Of a DNA stretch of 64,000 nucleotides, positions 20,947 through 62,000 are shown piece after piece. Positions within the stretch are counted from its first letter, which is position 1, and every line of letters begins with the position of its first letter. A program made the position numbers and the translations under genes. The stretch comes from Alphaproteobacteria bacterium (GTDB taxonomy: Bacteria > Pseudomonadota > Alphaproteobacteria > CAAGCB01 > CAG-977). The stretch spans positions 15,276 to 79,275 of the forward strand of contig JAFVAT010000032.1 of the NCBI GenBank assembly GCA_017480385.1, in the 5' to 3' direction. Under the pieces are notes generated by a model. The model was given only the letters and a program-made list of their open reading frames with translations. It was not told the origin of the DNA and did not search any database.

Positions 20947-21561
20947 ATGACAAATCAAAGCGTATGGAATAAAAACTGGGCGAATTGGAAAGAGGATTTC
21001 AAGCCTTCTCCGTTTGCCGAAAAAGCGTTTAAGCTGATGAAAATTAAGGACATGCACGACGTTTTGGATTTAGGATGCGGCAAAGGACGCAACAGCCTGT
21101 ATTTCGCGGCGAACGGCATGAACGTGACGGCAATGGATATTTCTGATGAGGCGCTGAAAACGGTAGAAAATCTGCGTCACCCGAAAATCAGGACGGTATG
21201 CGCGGATATTTCCAAAACGGATTTGGAACTGGAAAAATATGACGCGGTGTTTGCCTGCCTGTCTTTGCATTATTTCGGCGATGCGGTGACGCGCCTGATC
21301 ATCAATCGGGCGCACCGTTCTTTGCGGGGCGGAGGGCTGTTTTTTATCCGTTGCAAATCGGTCAAAGACAAGGCGTACGGCATCGGCGAAAAAGTCGGCG
21401 AAGATATGTATTTTGACGAATGGACTCGTCATTTTTTCCGTCCCGAATATATGACGGACGTCTTATCCGGCTTTGAAACGGCGGCTGTTTCGGAAACTGA
21501 AGAAGATTATTTCGGCGTCTGTCATTTTGTGGACGGCATTGCCGTCAAAGCGTCTTCTTAG
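20947..21561 (+). CDS. Class I SAM-dependent methyltransferase
   Basis: Motif [17 protein letters not shown], acidic motif II MDIS. Confidence 0.6.
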
Positions 21562-21597: not shown

Positions 21598-22362
21598 ATG
21601 AATTATCAGGACATTAACGCGAAAACAATTGATAAGTGGGTGACGGACGGCTGGGAATGGGGAAAGCCCGTTTCTCATGAAATCTGTTCAAAAGCGCGGC
21701 AGGGCGATTGGGCTGTTTGCCTGACGCCGATAAAGCCTGTTCCGCGTGAATGGCTGGGCGAAATCAAGCAAAAGAAAATTCTCGGATTGGCCTGCGGCGG
21801 CGGTCAGCAAATGCCTGTTTTTGCTGTTTTAGGCGCGGACTGTACCGTTTTGGATTATTCGGAAAAACAGTTGGAAAGCGAGCGTCTGGTCGCCGAAAGG
21901 GAAGGATATGATATTGATATTGTTCGCCATGACATGACAAAGCCTTTGCCTTTTGCCGATGAAAGTTTTGATTTGATTTTTCACCCTGTTTCCAACTGCT
22001 ATGTGCGGGACGTCTGTCCGATTTGGAAAGAGTGTTTTCGCGTTTTAAAACAGGGCGGCGTTCTGCTTTCAGGGCAGGACAACGGCATCAACTTTATCGT
22101 CAGCGATGAAGACGAAACGCACATTGTTAATCCTCTGCCGTTTAACCCGATGAACAATTCCGAACAAAAAGAACAGATGCTGAAGGAAGAAAACGGTATT
22201 CAGTTTTCTCATACGTTGGAAGAACAATTGGGCGGTCAGCTGGCGGCGGGACTGATCATCACGGATTTGTACGAAGATCTGAACGAAAGCGGCAGACTTA
22301 AAGAATTAAATGTTCCGACATATTGGGCGACCAGAGCCGTCAAAGGAAAAATCGTTTTTTAA
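21598..22362 (+). CDS. Class I SAM-dependent methyltransferase (second, divergent)
   Basis: Motif I ILGLACGGGQQ, VLDYSEKQ, FDLIF. Confidence 0.5.
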   Translation: MNYQDINAKTIDKWVTDGWEWGKPVSHEICSKARQGDWAVCLTPIKPVPREWLGEIKQKKILGLACGGGQQMPVFAVLGADCTVLDYSEKQLESERLVAEREGYDIDIVRHDMTKPLPFADESFDLIFHPVSNCYVRDVCPIWKECFRVLKQGGVLLSGQDNGINFIVSDEDETHIVNPLPFNPMNNSEQKEQMLKEENGIQFSHTLEEQLGGQLAAGLIITDLYEDLNESGRLKELNVPTYWATRAVKGKIVF

Positions 22363-22392: not shown

Positions 22393-22423
22393 TTGACTTT
22401 TTAAAAAAGAATCCTTATAGAAT
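22393..22423 (+). promoter_or_regulatory. Sigma70-like promoter driving the riboswitch leader
   Basis: TTGACT (22393-98), TAGAAT (22418-23) with a 19-nt spacer; alternatively TATAGA with a 17-nt spacer. Confidence 0.45.
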
Positions 22424-22432
22424 CAAAAACGG

Positions 22433-22495
22433 CTCATATAATTCCTCTGGTGCCGGAGGAAGTTTCTACTGAACAGGACCGTGTTCTGCTATGAG
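22433..22495 (+). promoter_or_regulatory. Purine riboswitch aptamer, guanine/xanthine-type (C at the specificity position)
   Basis: P1 CUCAUA/UAUGAG, J1/2 UAAU, P2 UCCUC/GAGGA with a GG-containing loop, exact J2/3 AGUUUCUAC, P3 with a CC-containing loop, and C immediately 5' of the P1 3' strand (C74 equivalent). Confidence 0.7.
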
Positions 22496-22501
22496 TGCTT
22501 G

Positions 22502-22537
22502 AAGCTCCGTTTGACGCGGTGTTTTAAGCTTTTTTTA
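22502..22537 (+). terminator. Candidate expression-platform terminator hairpin plus U-tract
   Basis: aagcu-ccg...cgg...agcuu followed by 7 T. The hairpin has an asymmetric internal loop, so this is only moderately convincing. Confidence 0.35.
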
Positions 22538-22562
22538 TGCCTCGAAGAAAGGAAAAAAGAGT

Positions 22563-23828
22563 ATGACCGTTCAGATCATTAAAGGACATATCGTTGATGC
22601 ACCCGCTTTCGGGAAATTGGCAATTACGGAAAACGGTTTTCTGATTCTGGAAAACGGCAGAATCGAAGGCGTTTTCGCCGAATTGCCGGAAACGTACCGC
22701 AATGCGCCGGTGACGGATTATGCGGATAAATTGATTTTGCCGTCTTTCGCCGATCTGCATATGCACGCGCCGCAATATGCGATGTTGGGCACGGGAATGG
22801 ATTTGCCTTTGCTGGATTGGCTGAACACGTATACGTTTAAAACGGAGGCCGCGTTCAAAGATACCGCTTACGCCCGTGAAGTCTACCGCGCTTTGGCCAA
22901 AGAAATGATCGATAACGGCACAACGCGTGTCTGCGCTTTTTCGTCTTTGCACCGTGAATCCACGATGATTTTAATGGAAGAATTTGAAAAGGCGGGTATG
23001 ACCGGCTATGTCGGCAAAGTCAATATGGACCGCAACTCCGGCGATGTTTTAACGGAAACAACTGAAGAATCCATGCGTGAAACAACAGCGTGGCTGGACG
23101 AAGCTTCGGATCAATTCGAGCATATCAAGCCGGTGCTGACGCCACGTTTCACACCGACTTGTTCAAACGAATTAATGGCGTTTCTGGGCAAACTAGCCGA
23201 GGAAAGAAACCTGCCCGTGCAGTCTCATTTATCCGAAAACACTTCCGAAATCGCTTGGGTCAGAGAGCTTCACCCCGATTGCGCGCAATATTGGGAAAGC
23301 TATAAAAAGTACGGCCTATTCAATGAACGCACTGTTATGGCGCACTGCGTCCATTCCGACGAACGCGAAAGAACAGCGATGCGGGAAAACGGCGTCTGGG
23401 TCGCGCATTGCCCTGATTCTAATATTAATCTGGTCAGCGGCGTGGCGCCCGTGCGCAAAATGGTCAACGAGGGCGTGCGCGTGACATTAGGATCGGATAT
23501 TGCGGGCGGGGCTTTGCTGGCGATGCCGCAGGTTGTAACTTCGGCTATCCGCGCGTCCAAAATGAAGCGGATCCAGACAGATTGGACGGACGACTTTTTA
23601 ACGGTGGCGGAAGCGTTTTATCTGGGCACGACAGCGGGCGCGAAATTCTTCGGTACAAACGGCGGGTTCGCGAAGGGTGACACACTGCACGCCATCGTCG
23701 TTGACGATTCGGCGTTCCCGACATCGGCCCAAAAGCTGTCGGTGACGGAACGCTTTGAACGGGCAATTTATCTGATGACGAAACGCGATATTGCAGCCGT
23801 TTACAGCGACGGGCGGAAAGTCAAATAG
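22563..23828 (+). CDS. guaD: Guanine deaminase (amidohydrolase superfamily)
   Basis: HxH metal motif (DLHMHAPQ); length and pattern match the guanine deaminase / cytosine-deaminase-like family. The riboswitch upstream supports a purine substrate. Confidence 0.6.
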   Translation: MTVQIIKGHIVDAPAFGKLAITENGFLILENGRIEGVFAELPETYRNAPVTDYADKLILPSFADLHMHAPQYAMLGTGMDLPLLDWLNTYTFKTEAAFKDTAYAREVYRALAKEMIDNGTTRVCAFSSLHRESTMILMEEFEKAGMTGYVGKVNMDRNSGDVLTETTEESMRETTAWLDEASDQFEHIKPVLTPRFTPTCSNELMAFLGKLAEERNLPVQSHLSENTSEIAWVRELHPDCAQYWESYKKYGLFNERTVMAHCVHSDERERTAMRENGVWVAHCPDSNINLVSGVAPVRKMVNEGVRVTLGSDIAGGALLAMPQVVTSAIRASKMKRIQTDWTDDFLTVAEAFYLGTTAGAKFFGTNGGFAKGDTLHAIVVDDSAFPTSAQKLSVTERFERAIYLMTKRDIAAVYSDGRKVK

Positions 23829-54477: not shown

Positions 54478-56016
54478 GTGAAAAGATATTTGAAAATCCG
54501 CCTTTTTGCAGTTGTTTTAAGTTTGTGTTGTCTGATTGTTCCGCAGGCGTCGGCACAACAGTCTGCTGCCCGTGAATCTATGGACGCGGCTATTGAACAG
54601 TCAAACGGACAATATTCTGAAATAGATATGCCTTTGTGGTCTGTTGGCATGCAGCAAAAAGCTTGGAATAAGCCAATGGAACATTTAGGAGAAGGGCAGT
54701 CTAAACCGGGATATTCCAGATATTACTGGACACCGGATCTGGTTTTGCCTCTGCGTATCCGCGAAGGCATGCATACGTTGGTTAATTTTCCGTCTTGGGA
54801 ATTGATTGAAAATATTTTTATGGGAAATGAAAGTGCCTTCGGCGCTCAAAAGGTAGCTCCGAATGCTTTGATGGTTTTTGCGGCGAATGCCGATTTGGTC
54901 GGCATGGATACGAACATGATTGTTTTTGGCAGATCCGGAAACAGATATGTTTTTTACCTCAGAAGCGAAACTTTTAATACGGACAGAATTACAAACTCGG
55001 TTGTAGATATTATTGTTAATGATGTTAAATTTGTTCCCGATGATTCCGGATTAACGCCAACGGCTTCCGGCGCGATTGTTCCCGGCGGAGGGATTGGCGC
55101 TGCGTTGGGGACAACCGGCGGCGGTTTGCGCGGCGGTAAAAAAACAACCAAAAACGCAACGGAAGATTGGTTGGCCGATTTAGAAGTGGATCCTGAAAAA
55201 ATACGGTTTGATATAGATGTTTTTGTGCCTAATCCAGCGGATATAGAAATTGCGCCGGAACGTGTGTGGCGCGATGAAATCTTCACTTATATTGATTTTG
55301 GCCCGAAAGCTTTGACTATGATAGAGCGACCTATTGTTAACCTGCTTTCTCAAGGATCCGAAGTGCCGATTGGTTTCAGAACACGCGGGCCGAATAGCAG
55401 ATTAATGGTTGTTGAAGGCATTGGTGATTTGGTTTTGCGTAACGGCAAACGTATTTTATGTTTAAAGATCAGAAAAGATCCCTCTTTCGGGACGGAATGG
55501 GTGGAATATGAAGCCTCCGTTCAGCCGCAATGGTCTCCCGGTCCGATGATTACGACGGGCGGATATAACGGCGGCGCTGCACAATCCGGAACGATGGGCG
55601 CTTCGAGTGTCGGTAATGTTCCGAATAATAACGGCATGATGATCTCTATGGGACCAAACGGAACGATGAGCGCCAATCAAATCGCACAGTTTTCTGCGCA
55701 AAGGCAGAGCGGTCAAAATTACGGACGTACGGCACAATCGTACCGCGGAAATTCAGAAGGCGGCTTTGCTATTGAGCTGGGAGCTGACGGGAATATTGTA
55801 ACATTAGAGCAAAAATGGGATGGCATCGCCCGCAAAAATAAAGATTTGCTGGGCGGATATGAACCGTACTATTCGGTAGACGCTGTTGCGGAGGGAGAAT
55901 CAAAAGATATGTTCCGTTTGCGGATCGGTCCTGTTGACAGTATCGAAGCAGGGGACAGGTTATGTAATCAATTAGGTCGCCGCGGGGTGACGTGTATGGT
56001 TGTGCGGACACAATGA
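54478..56016 (+). CDS. VirB9/CagX/TrbG-like outer-membrane-complex protein fused to a C-terminal SPOR peptidoglycan-binding domain
   Basis: GTG start with RBS. Signal peptide. VirB9 C-domain signature DEIFTYIDFGPKALTMIERPIVNLL...LMVVEGIGDLVLRNGKRILCLK. Gly-rich linker. Terminal ~80 aa FAIELGADGN...MFRLRIGPVDSIEAGDRLCNQLGRRGVTCMVV match the SPOR beta-alpha-beta-beta-alpha-beta pattern. Confidence 0.6.
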   Translation: MKRYLKIRLFAVVLSLCCLIVPQASAQQSAARESMDAAIEQSNGQYSEIDMPLWSVGMQQKAWNKPMEHLGEGQSKPGYSRYYWTPDLVLPLRIREGMHTLVNFPSWELIENIFMGNESAFGAQKVAPNALMVFAANADLVGMDTNMIVFGRSGNRYVFYLRSETFNTDRITNSVVDIIVNDVKFVPDDSGLTPTASGAIVPGGGIGAALGTTGGGLRGGKKTTKNATEDWLADLEVDPEKIRFDIDVFVPNPADIEIAPERVWRDEIFTYIDFGPKALTMIERPIVNLLSQGSEVPIGFRTRGPNSRLMVVEGIGDLVLRNGKRILCLKIRKDPSFGTEWVEYEASVQPQWSPGPMITTGGYNGGAAQSGTMGASSVGNVPNNNGMMISMGPNGTMSANQIAQFSAQRQSGQNYGRTAQSYRGNSEGGFAIELGADGNIVTLEQKWDGIARKNKDLLGGYEPYYSVDAVAEGESKDMFRLRIGPVDSIEAGDRLCNQLGRRGVTCMVVRTQ

Positions 56017-59000
56017 ACGAAGAATTACTCAGCTCATCAGACAGATATTTGAAAAAATCCAACAAAATGCTGTTGGTTGTCGGGATTGTTGCATTACTGG
56101 CTTTCCTGATCGGTATTGTTATTTTGTTGAGCGGGGAAGAAGAGCAGAAAAAAGATGCGGAAGTGACTATTGATGGTTCTGCGGACAGTTCGACTAATAT
56201 TACCGGCGGCAATGCGGATACGTTTAATCTTGCTCAGGATATAGATGCAACGACAACATCGACGGTCAGGTTGGTTGTTTCCCCGGAAACTCTGCGTTTT
56301 GATCAGGTCGTTTTGGGAACGGAAGCCGAAGGGACGTTGACGCTGTCCGCTTCTTCCGGTCGGATCAGGATCACCTCCGTTGAATTTGAAAATAAACAGG
56401 AAGAAAGTTTTATTCTGGAAAACAAATGCCGCAAAGATATTGTCCTGACCGGCGATGTGACATGCAACGTTGTTGTTCGCTGGGAACCGAAGACGGCACG
56501 GACGATACAGTCCAATTTAGCTGTTCGGTGGAGTGATGAAACTTTTGGCGGTATTGGTCGGAAAGTGATCGTTCCTATTTCAGCTATGGCAATTGATACC
56601 AGTATGTGCGGCGTGTGTGACGAAGCGCCGGGCGGTGGCGGATCGATGCTTGAGCAGTTGCGTAAAAAAGGACGCGTTGTCTTGGGGCCTGACGGAAAAC
56701 CGATCGGGTACGCCGATGAAAACGGTGTTGTCTATGGTTTGGACGGCAAAAGAATCGGCACGCTGCGTGATGATGGCACTGTTGTCGATGATCAGGGATA
56801 TGTAATTGGTGTTGTTGAAGGGTCAAGGCTGGCAATCGGACCGAATGGAGAAATTTTAGGAACGATTTTGCCCGACGGTCGTGTTATAGATAAGGACGGT
56901 CGGTTAATAGGATATGCTTTGCCTGACGGAACGATCGTAGACCTGAACGGCAATGTGATTGGTTCGGCTGTTAAAACGGGATTAGCATATGACAAATACG
57001 GCAATGTGATCGGTCGCATCATGCCTGACGGGACGGTCGTTGACGAGAATGGAAATATCATCGGATATGTTAACCCGGATGGCACGATTGTTGATATCAA
57101 CGGTAATATTATCGGTTCTGTTGCTCCTCAGGGAACGGTTGTTGATGCTTCAGGAAAACCCTTAGGTATCGTAATGCCTGATGGGACTGTCGTTGATGCG
57201 GACGGGAATATTATTGGGCGTGTTTTACCGAATGGGTTGGTTGTTGATAAAGACGGGAATATTATAGGGCGCGTTGTTAAGGAAGGCTTGGCAATCGGGC
57301 CTGCCTGCAAAATGGTTGGTCGAATCAGTACAGACGGATCGGTGATGTCCGGCAATCGTCAAGTCGGGCGTTTGACGGCTTCCATGGTTGTGGTTGATAT
57401 GTCGGGAAACCCAATTGCCGGTTATGTTGAAGAAGGCGCTTTAATCGACTGGAAAGGCAAAATTATTGGTAAAGTAGACACAGATGGTCAGCCTGTTTCT
57501 TTTAAGGGTGAACCTTTAGGGTGTTTGACGCCGTACGGAACGGTCGTAAATGATTCTGAAGAAATTACGGCATCTGTTTTGCCAAAGGGAACGGTTGTCG
57601 GAAATCAGGCTGAACTTATTGGACGAGTTATGCCGGACGGGTCTGTTGTTGGTAATGGCCAGATGAAAGGACGTATTTTGCCGGACAAGACGTTCTTATC
57701 AGAAGACGGCAATGTTTCAGGGGCTATTGCGCGGCAAAATGTCGGTGTCGGTCCGGGGTGCGTGGCCTTAGGATATGCGAATGTTGACGGCCAAATCATT
57801 ACGGCCAAAGGAGAATTTGCCGGTTATTTAGCGGCAAACGGCGATATTCTTGATGATAAGAAAGTCGTCTTGGGGAAAATTATGGATTCCTCGGTTGTTC
57901 TGAATAATCAGGGCCGTATAGCCGGTATTATGGATGCAAACGGCAAAGTACAAGATAAAAACGGGAAAATTTTGGGCTGTATGGACCCGTCGGGATTGGC
58001 CTTGAATTCTAAAAATGAAGCTGTCGGCATGCAAATGCCTGAGGGTGGTGTTCTGGACCGTGATGGGCGCACAATCGGTTGGGTCATGCCGGACGGCACT
58101 GTTTCGAATACCAGAGGTTCTTCCATCGGTCGGGCTGTACCAGACGGCACTGTCATTGATTTAGGTGGGCAAACAGTAGCCCGGCTGGCTCCTTATAACG
58201 GATTTGCCCTAAGAAATGCCTGTACGGTTGTCGGTAATATTTTGATAGACGGTCGTGTTGTCGATAAAGATTTCAACAGAAAAGCCTATATCCAAATGAA
58301 CGATTCGCTGGTTGATGATAAAGGGGCTTTCTTAGGGCGTGTTGCCTTTGCTTCCCGTGCGATCAGCGCTAAAGACGTTTATTTGGGAATAACGGCAAAA
58401 GATGGCTCACTGTATGATTCTTCGGGCAAAAAGATAGGTTGTCTGCGTCCGGATTCTTTGTTCATTGATGATAAGAACAGGTTTTTGGGAGCGGCATTGC
58501 CTGAAGGAATTGCGGTTAACAATAAAACTAACCTTTATGCCAGAGGGGATTCAATCGCAAAGGCGATGAATTTAAAAGGAAATTCTTTTATCGGAACTAT
58601 TACTCTCAGTGGCTTTGTCAAAGAAAAAGATACGATTTCCGGCGGTATTATCCCTCGGAAGGCGGATGTTTTAGATATTAAAACCAGCAAAACAATAGGT
58701 CGTTTGCTGCCGGACGGTTCTGCGATAGATTTGTCCAGCCGTTACATGGGGCGTTTAAAAATGCCCGGCGGAGAAATTGTTGATAAAAGCGATAAAGTCG
58801 TTGGTAAAATTTTTGTCGGCATGAGGCAGGTCATTGGACCGAACGGAGAAATTTTAGGTGTTGTCATGCCGGACGGTTCTGTTGTGGATGCGTCTGGTCG
58901 TGTGATCGGAAAAGCAAATTTAGACGGTCAGGTTGTTGATGAAAACGGTCGTGTCATCGGTGAGGTTATCCCCGTAGGGCAGCCGATTTTAGGGCTGGAT

Positions 59001-62000
59001 GGTAAGATTATCGGCTATGTCGGAATTGATGGAACAATCGTTGATAAAGACGGCAATCCCGTTTTGGGACCTAATGGTAAACCAATGCGTTATAGAGCCG
59101 GTGGTTCCGTTGTGGAAGAAGATGGAAAAGTTATCGGACGTGTCGGTGAAATGGGGCGACTTGTTTATGATGAAAACGGCAATATAATTGGTCGCGTTTT
59201 GCCCGATGGTACGGTTGTCGATTTAAATGGTAATGTCATTGGGAAAATGCTGCCTGATGGCACCGTCGTTGATTTGAATGGTAATGTAATTGGGCACGCC
59301 GGTGAATTAGAACAGCTCGTATTTGATGAAAACGGTCGTTTAATCGGACGGGTATTGGCTGACGGAACGGTTGTTGATTTCAATGGTAACGTGATTGGCC
59401 GTGTTTTGCCTGACGGTACAGTTATTTCGTTAGACGGCAAGGTGATAGGATATGCCGTAAAAGAAGGGATAGGACTAAATTTTCAAAACGAAGTTTTGGG
59501 TAAAATTAATTCTTCGGGACAGTTGAAAAAACAGGGGTCTGATAAAGTATTAGGAAATTTACAGGTTGATGATACGATCACGGACAGCAAAAACACTATT
59601 ATCGGGCGGGGAATCGTTAATTCAAGACCTGTTGGATTGCAATGTCAAGTTTTGGGAACGATCAATGATAAGGGTGAAGTTGTAGATACGACGGGCAAAA
59701 CAAGCGGTCGTGTAAATTATGATCGATCCTTGATTAATGCGATGAATTCACAGATTGGTCTGGCCCTAGGACAGGAATCCATTATTGATGACTCATGCAA
59801 AATTATTGGTCAAATAAATGCAGAGGGTAAAGCTGTTGATACTAAAGGAACAGAAATCGGCTGTGTTGATTTTGAAGGACTGGTAAAAGATAAAAACGGA
59901 AAACGTCTGGGACGGATTGTTTCCAAAGGGCCGGTGCAGGGACCAAATGGTGATATTGTAGGTAAAATCGTTTCTAATGGCGAAGTTTTAGGAAGTCAGG
60001 GAGATGTACTGGGCTGTTTGTCGCTTAATGGAGCCGTTGTAGATAAGGGAAAGAAAGTCTTAGGGGTTGTTTCCGATCAAAAATATGCCGTTGATGATCG
60101 AGGCAAGATTATTGCTCATGTTATTGGTGGAACGTATGGTGTTAATGCGGAAGGCGGTGCCTTTGTCGGGAAATTGTCAGATCAGGAATTAAAAGAAAAT
60201 GACGATAAATCGTTAGGAGTTTTAATTCCGGGCGGGCGTCGTGTCATTGCCGTTGACGGTAAAATGGTCGGAACGGTTCTTCCACGAGGACGAGTCCAAA
60301 ATGACAAAGGGGAAGAAGTTGGCTATGTTACATCTTCCATGCGTGTTTTAACAGACGATCAAAAATTTTTAGGCCGGGTTGTTCCTATTGGTGAAGAATG
60401 TAAAGATATGAAGGGCAAGACGATAGGAACGGTTCATTTCGACGGAACTATTGTCGATGAAAAGAATCAGGTTCTGGGACGTTTAATGGCCAGCGGTCAG
60501 GCTTTAAATAACGCCGGTGCGCATTTATGTATGATTTCTTTGATCAGCACAAGTGATGACGGGGCTTTATTTCCAAAAGGCTTAATCGGCAAAATGGTGT
60601 ACGGACCGGATGGAAAACCCTTGGGCGTTGTGGGGGCAGACGGTTTTATCCGCGACGCAAACGGGAATATCATCGGCAGAGTTTTGCCGGACGGAACGGT
60701 CGTTGACTTAAATGGCAATGTAATTGGGAAGGCGTATCCTAAAGGGGCTGTTTTCGGGCCGGACGGCAAATTCTTGGGCATTGTTGATGCTGACGGCTAT
60801 CTGCGCGATGAAAACGGGAATATTATCGGTCGTATGCTGCCGGACGGGACTGTTGTTGATATGAACGGCAATATTATCGGACGTGCGCTGCTGGAAGACG
60901 GCATTGTTGATGATAAAGGAAACTTCTTAACAAAAGCTGGACAATCCGGCGAAGCTTTATTGGAACGTTTGGTCTATGATGAAAACGGCAATGTGATCGG
61001 GCGGGTTCTGCCGGATGGAACGGTTGTTGATCTGAATGGCAACGTGATCGGTCGTATGCTTCCGGATGGAACAGTTGTTGATTTAAACGGTAATGTGATT
61101 GGTAAGGCCGGTCCTTTGGAACGATTGGCATATGATAAGGATGGCAAACTGATAGGTCGTGTTTTACCGGATGGAACAGTTGTTGATTTTAACGGCAACG
61201 TGATCGGGAGAATGCTACCTGATGGTACGATAGTTGATAAAAACGGCAATGTGATTGGCCGGGCGGGAACGACTCAGGCGGCTCAGTCCAAAAATGTTAA
61301 AATAGCTGTCGGAAGAGACGGCAAGTTCTTAGGTATAGTTGGGGAAGACGGTTTTGTTCGTGATGCGAACGGCAATATTATCGGACGTGTTTTACCAGAC
61401 GGCACGGTTGTTGATTTAAACGGTAATGTGATTGGTTCCATTTTGGAAGGCGAACCGATGTATGATGAAAACGGTAATATTATCGGTATCATTATGCCGG
61501 ATGGAAAAGTTGTGGATTTGGATGGCAACGTGATCGGACGTATTAATGCCAACGGTGAAATAGTTGATGAAGAAGGGAATATTCTGGGGACATGGCGCGG
61601 CGGAAAATTGACGGTTCAGAGTGACAAGTTGCGGCAAAAACGGTTCGCATTCGACAAAGACGGCAGGCGGATTGGAATGATTATGTCGGATGGTACAGTT
61701 GTTGATGAAAACGGCAATGTGATCGGGCGGGTTCTGCCGGACGGTACCGTTGTTGATTTAGAAGGTAATGTAATTGGTTCAACGACAGATCCGAATGTTT
61801 CTTCGCCTTCATTGGGAAAAACGGATAAAGAGAAGCAGGTTTCTGTTTTTGGTACGTTTGATCCGGATAAATACAGTTATCGGGGAACGGGCGGTACAGG
61901 CAAAGGAGAACGCTATGATCCGGCCAGAATCAAGCGGCTCAGAGAACTGCAAATGGCCTACCGCCGTCAGATCCGTCCCGGAATGGGAATGGGTGAAACG

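What the first reader, a model, noticed from the sequence alone, without database searches (positions are those of the whole stretch)
22393..22562. Guanine-type purine riboswitch in the leader of a guanine deaminase gene
The 5' UTR has the full purine aptamer core (P1 CUCAUA/UAUGAG, J1/2 UAAU, exact J2/3 AGUUUCUAC, GG and CC loop residues for the L2-L3 kissing interaction, C at the specificity position), preceded by a sigma70-like promoter and followed by a hairpin plus U-tract. Purine riboswitches are rare outside Firmicutes and a few gamma-Proteobacteria. They usually turn purine synthesis or transport OFF. Controlling a catabolic deaminase implies either an ON-switch architecture (pbuE-like) or a counter-intuitive OFF switch. 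The downstream hairpin does not obviously overlap P1, so the logic is unresolved.
Basis: partly seen in the sequence, partly recalled or inferred. Interest (0 to 1): 0.65.

Follow-up and report, generated by a model that had tools for sequence, protein, structure and literature searches.

The report
Divergent guanine riboswitch before guanine deaminase
This is a real guanine-type purine riboswitch in front of a guanine deaminase gene, in an uncultured gut alphaproteobacterium that probably acquired it from Clostridia, and it is too divergent in its outer loops for the standard Rfam model to call it.

Summary
The described sequence is there. A 65-nt three-stem junction lies at 22432-22496. It has the complete guanine-I binding core, including U47 and C at the specificity position 22489. 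A conserved promoter precedes it. A hairpin plus U7 (22497-22536) and a guanine-deaminase gene (22563-23828) follow it.

Rfam RF00167 scores it 32.4 bits, below the gathering score of 37, as it does for its whole alphaproteobacterial clade (30.9-35.7 bits). Comparative evidence shows it is real:
- Orthologous Oscillospiraceae leaders are bona fide RF00167 hits (39.5-66.3 bits).
- The three stems covary: 87% of cells are paired, against 43-47% in slid controls.
- The aptamer is 72-95% conserved where four-fold codon sites are 38-62% identical.

What differs from canonical members:
- The L2 and L3 loops are short and variable.
- J3/1 reads GC instead of AC.
- The host phylum is unusual for this family.

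In the Clostridia relatives the terminator invades the 3' strand of P1, which is an ON design that fits a catabolic enzyme. In the window that overlap has eroded to nothing, so the coupling between aptamer and expression is unresolved. ON is my best guess, at about 0.5. Relatives also show remodelling to a terminator-less platform, core mutation and outright loss. I rate this a modest new variant of a known kind.

The parts
22393..22398 (+). -35-like hexamer TTGACT
   Evidence: Read. TTGAC(A/T) stands at the same distance from the aptamer in all alphaproteobacterial relatives. The consensus scan did not call the promoter because of the -10 hexamer.
22416..22421 (+). -10-like hexamer TATAGA, 17 nt after the -35. 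It implies a transcript start about 22427-22431, only a few nucleotides before P1.
   Evidence: Read. TATA(G/A)A or TATAAC is conserved in relatives. The start site is inferred, not shown.
22432..22496 (+). Purine (guanine-type) riboswitch aptamer: P1 22432-38/22490-96; J1/2 22439-41; P2 22442-48/22455-61 with L2 GGUGCC 22449-54; J2/3 GUUUCUAC 22462-69; P3 22470-75/22482-87 with L3 GGACCG 22476-81; J3/1 G22488 and C22489 (specificity C).
   Evidence: RF00167 gives 32.4 bits over all 102 model positions. My own model R1 gives 72.4 bits, and this is its only hit in the 64-kb window (the window sequence was in the training set). Covariation of the three stems is shown. Aptamer identity to relatives is 0.72-0.95, against 0.38-0.62 at four-fold sites.
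22497..22536 (+). Intrinsic-terminator-like hairpin: outer stem 22497-22505/22521-22529, inner stem 22507-10/22516-19, loop 22511-15, then U7 at 22530-22536. It starts at the nucleotide after P1.
   Evidence: Minimum-energy folds (-16.6 kcal/mol). RNAalifold on 9 related leaders keeps the hairpin, with 3 compensatory pairs in the inner stem. The pattern scan missed it because of the internal mismatch.
22549..22554 (+). Shine-Dalgarno-like AAGGAA, 8 nt before the ATG
   Evidence: Read. AAAGGA(A/U) is conserved at this place in the terminator-bearing relatives.
22563..23828 (+). Guanine deaminase gene (amidohydrolase superfamily, 421 aa). It is monocistronic; the next genes are on the minus strand.
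   Evidence: ORF and translation. TIGR02967 guan_deamin scores 359.5 bits (cut-off 375.4), while 8-oxoguanine deaminase NF006055 scores only 109.5 bits. Pfam Amidohydro_1. PDB 2i9u gives E = 3.6e-111 over the full length, followed by human, E. coli and yeast guanine deaminases.

Best explanation
A selectively maintained guanine-sensing riboswitch of the purine (guanine-I-like) architecture controls a monocistronic guanine deaminase mRNA.

The transcript starts a few nucleotides before P1. The three-way junction keeps the ligand-contacting nucleotides of guanine-I aptamers (U22, U47, U51, C74), so the ligand is most likely guanine, the enzyme's substrate.

The element and its terminator-type expression platform are homologous to those in front of the same gene in Oscillospiraceae. 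They were most likely acquired together with the gene by an ancestor of this gut alphaproteobacterial clade.

In the Clostridia relatives the terminator stem uses the last 4-6 nucleotides of the 3' strand of P1. Ligand-stabilised P1 therefore truncates the terminator and separates it from the U tract. This is an ON switch: guanine induces its own deamination.

I take the window's copy to be a descendant of that ON switch. In this lineage the P1/terminator overlap has eroded to zero, so the physical coupling here is not shown.

Shown:
- the anatomy of the aptamer;
- covariation of the stems;
- purifying selection on the aptamer;
- the exclusive association with this gene;
- the ON architecture in the relatives.

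Inferred:
- the ligand;
- the direction of gene transfer;
- the direction of control in this window.
For: Anatomy and core nucleotides:
- The elements are read.
- Invariant alignment columns cover J1/2, J2/3 and J3/1.
- Structure: 87.4% of cells are paired, against 43-47% for slid registers. Twelve pairs carry compensatory changes, reached by 0 of 500 shuffles.

Homology to bona fide members:
- Leaders of the orthologous gene in 9 Clostridia loci reach RF00167 at 39.5-66.3 bits.

Exclusive gene association:
- All 16 metagenome matches to an aptamer pattern lie upstream of the same deaminase.
- There is only one copy in the 64-kb window.

Selection:
- Aptamer identity is 0.72-0.95, against 0.38-0.62 at four-fold degenerate sites of the adjacent gene.

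ON design in relatives:
- The terminator overlaps the 3' strand of P1 by 4-6 nt and loses 5.8-10.8 kcal/mol when P1 is locked.
- The terminator state beats the P1 state by 0.8-10.5 kcal/mol without ligand.

No support for an OFF design:
- No antiterminator better than shuffled controls was found in any leader.

Transfer:
- Alphaproteobacterial loci share the flanking genes with the window. Clostridia loci share only the deaminase.
- The family is rare outside Firmicutes (PMC2258182).

Precedent:
- The Bacillus halodurans ssnA (amidohydrolase) leader carries a guanine-specific aptamer with KD about 414 nM.
- G at position 73 occurs naturally in the L. monocytogenes pbuG aptamer (PMC2018637).
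Against: - RF00167 is below its gathering score here and in every alphaproteobacterial relative (30.9-35.7 bits).
- L2 and L3 lack the canonical loop sequences. No Watson-Crick complementarity between them is conserved across the clade, and L050 has only a tetraloop as L3. The loop-loop contact is reported as essential for ligand binding (PMC2018637).
- In the window the terminator and P1 share no pair. The state with both formed is the minimum-energy structure, so thermodynamics predicts termination regardless of ligand.
- Sister lineages have mutated the core (L047, L055) or lost the element (L052-L054, L020). Selection on it is therefore not universal.
- No ligand binding or regulation was measured.
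- The direction of transfer was not tested by phylogeny.
Confidence: 0.55

Rival explanations
1. OFF switch. Ligand binding (guanine, or the product xanthine or hypoxanthine as feedback) lets the terminator form. Without ligand, the free J2/3 strand (AGUUUC) and the end of P1 pair with the 5' strand of the terminator (GAAGCU) as an antiterminator.
For: - The terminator does not overlap P1, as in xpt-type OFF switches.
- With a 5' leader AACGG included, the minimum-energy fold of the nascent transcript ending at 22510-22515 is such an alternative (-23.5/-24.2 against -22.1 kcal/mol).
- The 5' strand of the terminator, GAGUGCUUGAAGC, is invariant in 9 leaders while its partner strand varies.
- GUUUC can pair with GAAGC in all of them.
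Against: - Without the leader nucleotides, no alternative beats the aptamer in any of 20 leaders, and shuffled sequences do as well or better.
- The pairing is only 5-6 bp against a hairpin of -16.6 kcal/mol.
- The GAAG motif is absent in L005.
- Homologous platforms in Clostridia are ON designs.
- Repressing a substrate-consuming enzyme with its substrate makes little physiological sense.
Confidence: 0.17
2. Uncoupled or differently coupled element. In this lineage the aptamer still folds and binds ligand but no longer controls the terminator. The hairpin is a constitutive attenuator. Any ligand effect works through another route, for example stabilising the 5'-terminal structure against 5'-end-dependent decay, or translation.
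For: - There is zero P1/terminator overlap in the window.
- The overlap erodes in steps across the clade. The gap by which the P1 state is more stable is 1.0 kcal/mol in L051, 1.5-1.9 in L003, L005 and L030, 3.7 in L001 and L048, and there is no overlap at all in the window.
- Another sub-clade dropped the terminator altogether and has the ATG 24-26 nt after P1.
- Other lineages mutated or lost the aptamer.
- P1 begins only about 3-5 nt from the inferred transcript start.
Against: - The aptamer is under clear purifying selection in the window's own sub-clade: 0.88-0.95 identity against 0.58-0.62 at four-fold sites.
- The terminator is conserved with compensatory changes.
- Complementarity between the aptamer and the translation start region is no better than for shuffled sequences.
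- The GUUCAG codons that could pair with P3 are not kept in L046.
Confidence: 0.18
3. Changed ligand. The non-canonical loops, G73 and the U54.U72 mismatch retune the pocket to another purine derivative rather than guanine.
For: - Natural variants of this scaffold sense adenine, 2'-deoxyguanosine, xanthine and 8-oxoguanine, often in front of catabolic genes (PMC9295807, PMC10556655).
- A73G abolishes binding in the B. subtilis xpt context (PMC2018637).
Against: - All nucleotides that contact the ligand in guanine-I (U22, U47, U51, C74) are invariant.
- There is no U47 deletion, no U51G, and no J2/3 or J3/1 insertion.
- G73 occurs in working guanine aptamers (PMC2018637) and alternates with A73 among the Clostridia leaders of the same gene.
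- The enzyme is much closer to guanine deaminases than to 8-oxoguanine deaminase.
Confidence: 0.08
4. Chance resemblance to the purine motif, with no RNA function.
For: The Rfam score is below the gathering threshold. Small AU-rich purine models are known to give spurious hits (PMC2258182).
Against: Conservation, covariation, a fixed position in front of one gene family in two phyla, and bona fide Rfam hits in the orthologous leaders.
Confidence: 0.01

Closest known systems
Guanine-I riboswitch (Rfam RF00167 Purine; B. subtilis xpt-pbuX type)
   Same: - Three-stem junction.
- J1/2 UAA, J2/3 GUUUCUAC and C at position 74.
- P1 top pairs UA/UA.
- An intrinsic terminator follows.
   Different: - Scores 32.4 bits, below the gathering score of 37.
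- L2 is 6 nt (GGUGCC) and L3 is 6 nt (GGACCG), instead of the conserved 7-nt loops that form the kissing tetrads.
- G73 and a U54.U72 mismatch.
- No antiterminator of the xpt kind.
- It controls a catabolic enzyme.
- The host is labelled Alphaproteobacteria.
Purine riboswitches upstream of the orthologous guanine deaminase in Oscillospiraceae/Clostridia MAGs (L009-L013, L015, L017, L019, L021)
   Same: - The same gene family (58-68% aa identity).
- The same position in the leader.
- The same core.
- A partly identical platform start (GAGUGUUCUGAA against GAGUGCUUGAAG).
   Different: - These pass the Rfam threshold (39.5-66.3 bits).
- Their L2 is closer to canonical.
- Their terminators invade P1 by 4-6 nt (an ON design). 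The window's terminator does not.
Bacillus halodurans ssnA guanine riboswitch (PMC2018637)
   Same: A guanine-type aptamer in front of an amidohydrolase-superfamily gene. It is a natural variant near position 73 with an unstable P3. It binds guanine specifically but weakly (about 414 nM).
   Different: The window's gene is a guanine deaminase, not SsnA (SsnA model 91.8 bits against a cut-off of 444). The BH-ssnA variation is an extra nucleotide before position 73. Here the length is unchanged.
8-oxoguanine riboswitch of Paenibacillaceae (PMC10556655)
   Same: A variant of the same scaffold, in front of a purine deaminase of the same superfamily. It is an ON switch through a terminator that competes with P1 and P3.
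   Different: That class is defined by the absence of U47. The window has U47 (GUUUCUAC). The gene here is much closer to guanine deaminase than to 8-oxoguanine deaminase.
Adenine ON switches: B. subtilis pbuE (transcriptional) and V. vulnificus add (translational, in a proteobacterium)
   Same: They are precedents for purine aptamers that activate expression. The add case also controls a deaminase gene in a proteobacterium. The terminator-less sub-clade found here (L007 and others) resembles add in layout.
   Different: Those have U74 (adenine). pbuE has an extensive overlap between terminator and aptamer. add sequesters the ribosome-binding site. Neither feature is demonstrable in the window.

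Membership tests
Guanine-I / Rfam RF00167 Purine riboswitch | Three-stem junction P1-P2-P3 supported by covariation | tested here: met
   In 24 distinct leaders, 87.4% of cells are paired, against 43-47% in slid controls. Twelve pairs have changes on both sides, reached by 0 of 500 shuffles.
Guanine-I / Rfam RF00167 Purine riboswitch | Conserved junction nucleotides that form the pocket: U22, U47, U51, A52, C74 and the G46-C53 pair | tested here: met
   UAUAA, GU(U/C)UCUAC and CUAUG are invariant or nearly invariant columns. Window positions 22439, 22463, 22467, 22468 and 22489.
Guanine-I / Rfam RF00167 Purine riboswitch | Score at or above the curated gathering threshold (37 bits) | tested here: not met
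   32.4 bits in the window and 30.9-35.7 bits in 11 alphaproteobacterial relatives. Orthologous Clostridia leaders reach 39.5-66.3 bits.
Guanine-I / Rfam RF00167 Purine riboswitch | L2-L3 loop-loop (kissing) interaction with conserved 7-nt loops | tested here: inconclusive
   The loops are 6 + 6 nt in the window and vary from 3 to 9 nt in the clade. L2 ...GCC with L3 GG... could pair in the window, L001, L002, L041 and L046, but not in L048-L051. L050 has a tetraloop as L3. Deciding this needs a 3D structure or chemical probing.
Guanine-I / Rfam RF00167 Purine riboswitch | Selective binding of guanine | not testable with these tools
   Inferred only from the pocket nucleotides and the gene association.
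Adenine riboswitch | U at position 74 | tested here: not met
   C at 22489, invariant in all relatives.
8-oxoguanine riboswitch | Absence of U47 in J2/3, and association with 8-oxoguanine deaminase (PMC10556655) | tested here: not met
   J2/3 is GUUUCUAC with U47 present. The gene scores 359.5 bits on guanine deaminase against 109.5 bits on 8-oxoguanine deaminase.
Xanthine-II and guanine-II riboswitches | U51G (xanthine-II), and insertions in J2/3 and J3/1 (both classes) (PMC9295807) | tested here: not met
   U51 is kept. J2/3 and J3/1 have the guanine-I lengths.
Guanine deaminase (amidohydrolase type, TIGR02967), for the regulated gene | Full-length match to the equivalog model, and closest solved relatives being guanine deaminases | tested here: inconclusive
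   359.5 bits is just below the equivalog cut-off of 375.4. The top PDB matches are all guanine deaminases: 2i9u at 3.6e-111, 2uz9, 3e0l, 6ohb and 6oh9. Substrate was not tested.

The most novel reading that the evidence does not exclude
The alphaproteobacterial clade is a structurally distinct subclass of the purine riboswitch. It keeps the guanine pocket but has given up or replaced the canonical L2-L3 kissing interaction, down to a tetraloop L3 in one member. It was transferred across phyla together with a catabolic gene. It is now being rewired from Firmicutes-style termination control to another mode of control (translation or mRNA stability). Every stage can be seen in sequenced relatives: intact, terminator-less, core-mutated and lost.
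Probability: 0.25. Interest if true: 0.6.

Novelty: new variant of a known kind. Interest (0 to 1): 0.45.

Why it matters
- It shows a whole clade of working-looking purine riboswitches that the curated Rfam threshold misses. Riboswitch censuses of gut Proteobacteria therefore undercount them.
- It links a guanine-I-type pocket to guanine catabolism. In the Clostridia relatives this is an ON switch, whereas guanine-I members are usually described as OFF switches for synthesis and uptake.
- The clade offers a natural series for studying how a horizontally acquired cis-regulatory RNA is kept, re-plumbed or discarded in a host with different expression machinery.
- It also allows a test of how far the 'essential' loop-loop contact can be altered while ligand binding is kept.
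- None of this overturns what is known about the class.

Tried and rejected
1. **Translational sequestration.** I saw that the P1 5' strand plus leader (AACGG-C-UCAUA) can pair with UAUGA-CCGUU at the start codon, and that the P3 5' strand CUGAAC can pair with codons 3-4, GUUCAG. The duplex energy between aptamer and start region is no better than for dinucleotide shuffles (fraction of shuffles at least as good 0.08-0.86 over 20 leaders). L046 has GUGCAG at codons 3-4. I dropped this as unsupported.

2. **An xpt-like antiterminator.** Prefix folds with P1 free or forced show no competitor in any leader, and shuffles do as well. The one alternative seen in the window needs the leader pairing AACGG x CCGU. 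That pairing is not conserved in L003, L005 or L030.

3. **A swapped kissing pair (L2 CC with L3 GG).** This fits the window, L001, L002, L041 and L046. It fails in L048-L051.

4. **Membership in the 8-oxoguanine, xanthine-II, guanine-II or adenine classes.** The defining features are absent (PMC10556655, PMC9295807).

5. **A leader peptide.** The uORF at 22537-22566 overlaps the start codon, but its length and frame are not conserved.

6. **The promoter/terminator pattern scan.** It found neither element. Both were established by reading, folding and comparison instead.

7. **Literature.** I found no paper in the searchable library that describes a guanine riboswitch in front of a guanine deaminase, or a purine riboswitch in Alphaproteobacteria. 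Absence from that library is not proof of absence.

Full report
**What is in the sequence**

On the + strand there is a promoter-like pair of hexamers: TTGACT at 22393-22398, a 17-nt spacer, then TATAGA at 22416-22421.

A 65-nt element follows at 22432-22496:
- P1: GCUCAUA pairs with UAUGAGU.
- J1/2: UAA.
- P2: UUCCUCU pairs with GGAGGAA, closing the loop GGUGCC.
- J2/3: GUUUCUAC.
- P3: UGAACA pairs with UGUUCU, with a U.U mismatch at the base, closing the loop GGACCG.
- J3/1: GC.

Immediately after P1 comes a hairpin at 22497-22529 (-16.6 kcal/mol), then U7 at 22530-22536. After that come AAGGAA and the ATG at 22563. The unconstrained fold of the leader gives exactly aptamer plus hairpin.

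Rfam finds nothing in the 64-kb window at gathering thresholds. With relaxed thresholds on 351 nt, RF00167 (Purine) aligns end to end at 32.4 bits against a gathering score of 37, E = 0.0018 for that small search. The deficit lies in the loops (5-6 nt where the model expects 6 and 9) and at J3/1 (GC for AC). Taken alone this is a sub-threshold hit, and at the scale of the whole window it would not be significant.

**The gene**

The ORF at 22563-23828 is an amidohydrolase.
- Its best NCBIfam model is guanine deaminase TIGR02967: 359.5 bits against a cut-off of 375.4. The 8-oxoguanine deaminase model scores only 109.5 bits and SsnA 91.8 bits.
- Its best solved relatives are all guanine deaminases. 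The first is C. acetobutylicum 2i9u, at 3.6e-111 over the full length.
- It is monocistronic. The next genes (DUF1796, bifunctional IspDF) are on the other strand.

**Relatives**

A scan of one genome per species found the gene in two groups:
- eight MAGs labelled Alphaproteobacteria or Rhodospirillaceae (78-90% amino-acid identity);
- many Oscillospiraceae and other Clostridia (58-68%).

The alphaproteobacterial loci share the window's flanking genes: acyl-ACP thioesterase and a methyltransferase upstream, DUF1796, IspDF and DusB downstream. The Clostridia loci share only the deaminase. The window itself is a 168-kb metagenome scaffold.

The aptamer is present upstream of the gene in all eight alphaproteobacterial loci and in 9 of 11 Clostridia loci with complete upstream sequence.
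- In the Clostridia it is a bona fide RF00167 hit (39.5-66.3 bits).
- In every alphaproteobacterial relative tested it is below threshold (30.9-35.7 bits).

A metagenome scan for an aptamer pattern returned 16 loci, and every one sits upstream of the same gene. A covariance model built from the 24 distinct aptamers finds a single copy in the window.

**Is it a structured, selected RNA?**

Yes.
- On the 24-sequence alignment the three stems are 87.4% paired, against 43-47% when the partner is slid by one to three columns. Twelve of 21 pairs show changes on both sides, and no shuffle of 500 reaches these values (one search was my own off-by-one error in the P1 register).
- The junction columns are invariant.
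- Compared with the window, relatives are 38-62% identical at four-fold degenerate third positions of the deaminase gene but 72-95% identical in the aptamer. Within the window's own sub-clade the figures are 58-62% against 88-95%.

**Which class?**

The pocket is that of guanine-I: U22, U47, U51 and C74 are all present and invariant. This excludes:
- the adenine class (U74);
- the 8-oxoguanine class, defined by loss of U47 (PMC10556655);
- xanthine-II and guanine-II, which have U51G and/or insertions in J2/3 and J3/1 (PMC9295807).

G at position 73 is a known natural variation that depends on context. L. monocytogenes pbuG has it, although A73G kills binding in the B. subtilis xpt aptamer (PMC2018637). 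It alternates with A73 among the Clostridia leaders of this same gene.

A guanine aptamer in front of an amidohydrolase gene has a precedent in B. halodurans ssnA, which is guanine-specific with KD about 414 nM (PMC2018637).

What is unusual is the periphery.
- The loop-loop contact is described as essential (PMC2018637), yet L2 and L3 here are short and non-canonical.
- Across the clade they vary widely. L2 examples are GGUGCC, GCGUUGUG, CGUA, GUC and GCGUAUA. L3 examples are GGACCG, AAGUCCG, AAGAUCGC, GUGACCGA and AACU.
- A swapped pairing (L2 ..CC with L3 GG..) fits five close relatives but not L048-L051.
- Whether, and how, the loops dock is open.

**How it works**

In the Clostridia leaders the terminator stem includes the last 4-6 nt of the 3' strand of P1.
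- Locking P1 costs the terminator 5.8-10.8 kcal/mol and leaves about 4 nt between the stem and the U tract.
- Without ligand, the full-terminator state is the minimum-energy structure, by 0.8-10.5 kcal/mol over the P1 state.

That is the architecture of an ON switch, and it is the sensible logic for an enzyme that consumes the ligand.

In the alphaproteobacterial leaders with a terminator, the same platform is recognisable: GAGUGUUCGAAG.. or GAGUGCUUGAAG.. against GAGUGUUCUGAA.. in L013. However, the overlap is reduced to G.U, A-U or U-A pairs with the U tract.
- The P1 state is now more stable by 1.0 kcal/mol in L051, 1.5-1.9 in L003, L005 and L030, and 3.7 in L001 and L048.
- In the window there is no overlap at all.

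I looked for the alternatives.
- No antiterminator beats shuffled controls.
- Pairing between the aptamer and the translation start region is no better than chance.

So the window's aptamer is under selection and its terminator is conserved with compensatory changes, yet secondary-structure thermodynamics does not explain how the two communicate.

The 5' strand of the terminator is invariant in nine leaders while its partner strand varies. This hints at an extra constraint, for example pairing with J2/3 (GUUUC with GAAGC), which would argue for OFF logic. I rank the options as follows:
- ON by descent: about 0.5.
- OFF: about 0.17.
- Uncoupled from termination, or coupled by another route: about 0.18.

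**Evolutionary picture (partly inferred)**

The family is concentrated in Firmicutes and is sporadic elsewhere, where horizontal transfer has been suspected (PMC2258182).

Here the riboswitch plus gene sits as an insert in a conserved alphaproteobacterial neighbourhood. It carries a Firmicutes-style terminator platform that is homologous to the one in Oscillospiraceae. Within the alphaproteobacterial clade I see several states:
- intact aptamer plus terminator (the window, L001-L005, L008, L030, L037, L041, L046, L048-L051);
- intact aptamer, no terminator, ATG 24-26 nt after P1 (L007, L029, L031, L033-L035, L038-L040, L042);
- promoter and terminator kept but the core mutated (L047, L055);
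- no element at all in otherwise syntenic loci (L052, L054), and also none in L053 and L020.

The direction of transfer was not tested by a phylogeny.

**Verdict**

This is a genuine riboswitch of a well-known class. Its peripheral loops are non-canonical, its host phylum is unusual, it controls a catabolic gene, and its coupling to expression in this particular lineage is unresolved. It is a modest variant of a known kind. It is of interest mainly as a natural series for the evolution of an acquired cis-regulatory RNA, and for the question of how dispensable the canonical loop-loop contact is.

Noticed in passing
window 21598-22362 (+): A second SAM-dependent methyltransferase gene lies between the methyltransferase at 20947-21561 and the riboswitch promoter. 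The syntenic alphaproteobacterial loci L001-L008 lack it: tblastx coverage stops at about 21593 and resumes at about 22393. It looks like a lineage-specific insertion or duplication.
   Followed up: partly
L047:481-536 and L055:477-538: These are two leaders of deaminases 86-87% identical to the window's. They have the same promoter and the same terminator, but a mutated aptamer core: J2/3 is GUUUCCGC instead of GUUUCUAC, J1/2 is changed, and P3 is shortened. My model scores them only 25.7 and 27.8 bits. They could be decaying copies or a variant with another ligand.
   Followed up: partly
L007:2908-3000, L029, L031, L033-L035, L038-L040, L042: This sub-clade keeps an intact aptamer but has no terminator. 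A short hairpin and AGAGGGCU lie between P1 and an ATG only 24-26 nt downstream. The layout suggests control of translation, as is usual in Proteobacteria. The mechanism is not established.
   Followed up: partly
L052:380-600, L054:380-600, L053, L020: These alphaproteobacterial orthologues (68-72% identity) have no aptamer or terminator. L052 and L054 keep the methyltransferase-deaminase synteny. They have a plain short 5' UTR behind a TTGATT/TATAAA promoter. The riboswitch has been lost, or was never gained, in these lineages.
   Followed up: partly
window 22537-22566 (+): 'UAUG' directly after the U tract is conserved in all terminator-bearing leaders. In the window it opens a 9-codon uORF (MPRRKEKRV) whose UGA overlaps the deaminase start codon (AUGA). 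In relatives the uORF is 2 codons long (L003, L041, L046), or is in frame with the gene (L001), or overlaps it out of frame (L005). A peptide function is therefore unlikely, and the conservation of the AUG is unexplained.
   Followed up: partly
window 22493-22505 and the same place in L001, L002, L041, L046-L050, L055: The 5' strand of the terminator, GAGUGCUUGAAGC, is invariant in nine leaders while the 3' strand varies (GUUUUAAGC, GCUUUUUGAGC, GCUUUAAGC). This is a sequence constraint that the hairpin alone does not explain.
   Followed up: partly
L050:476-536: This aptamer has P3 capped by only a tetraloop (AACU) and a different L2 (CGUGUAAC), yet its core is intact.
   Followed up: no
window 1-64000: No Rfam family reaches its gathering score anywhere in the 64 kb. 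There is not even a tRNA.
   Followed up: no
window 55992-63059 (+): A 2355-aa ORF. I did not examine it.
   Followed up: no
L029:3915-3981 (+), L007:4232-4321 (+): Weak sub-threshold matches to RF02621 (Brucella sRNA BSnc120): 31.9 and 25.3 bits against a gathering score of 114. In L007 the match overlaps the 3' end of the deaminase gene and runs just beyond it; in L029 it lies upstream of the riboswitch. Probably chance.
   Followed up: no
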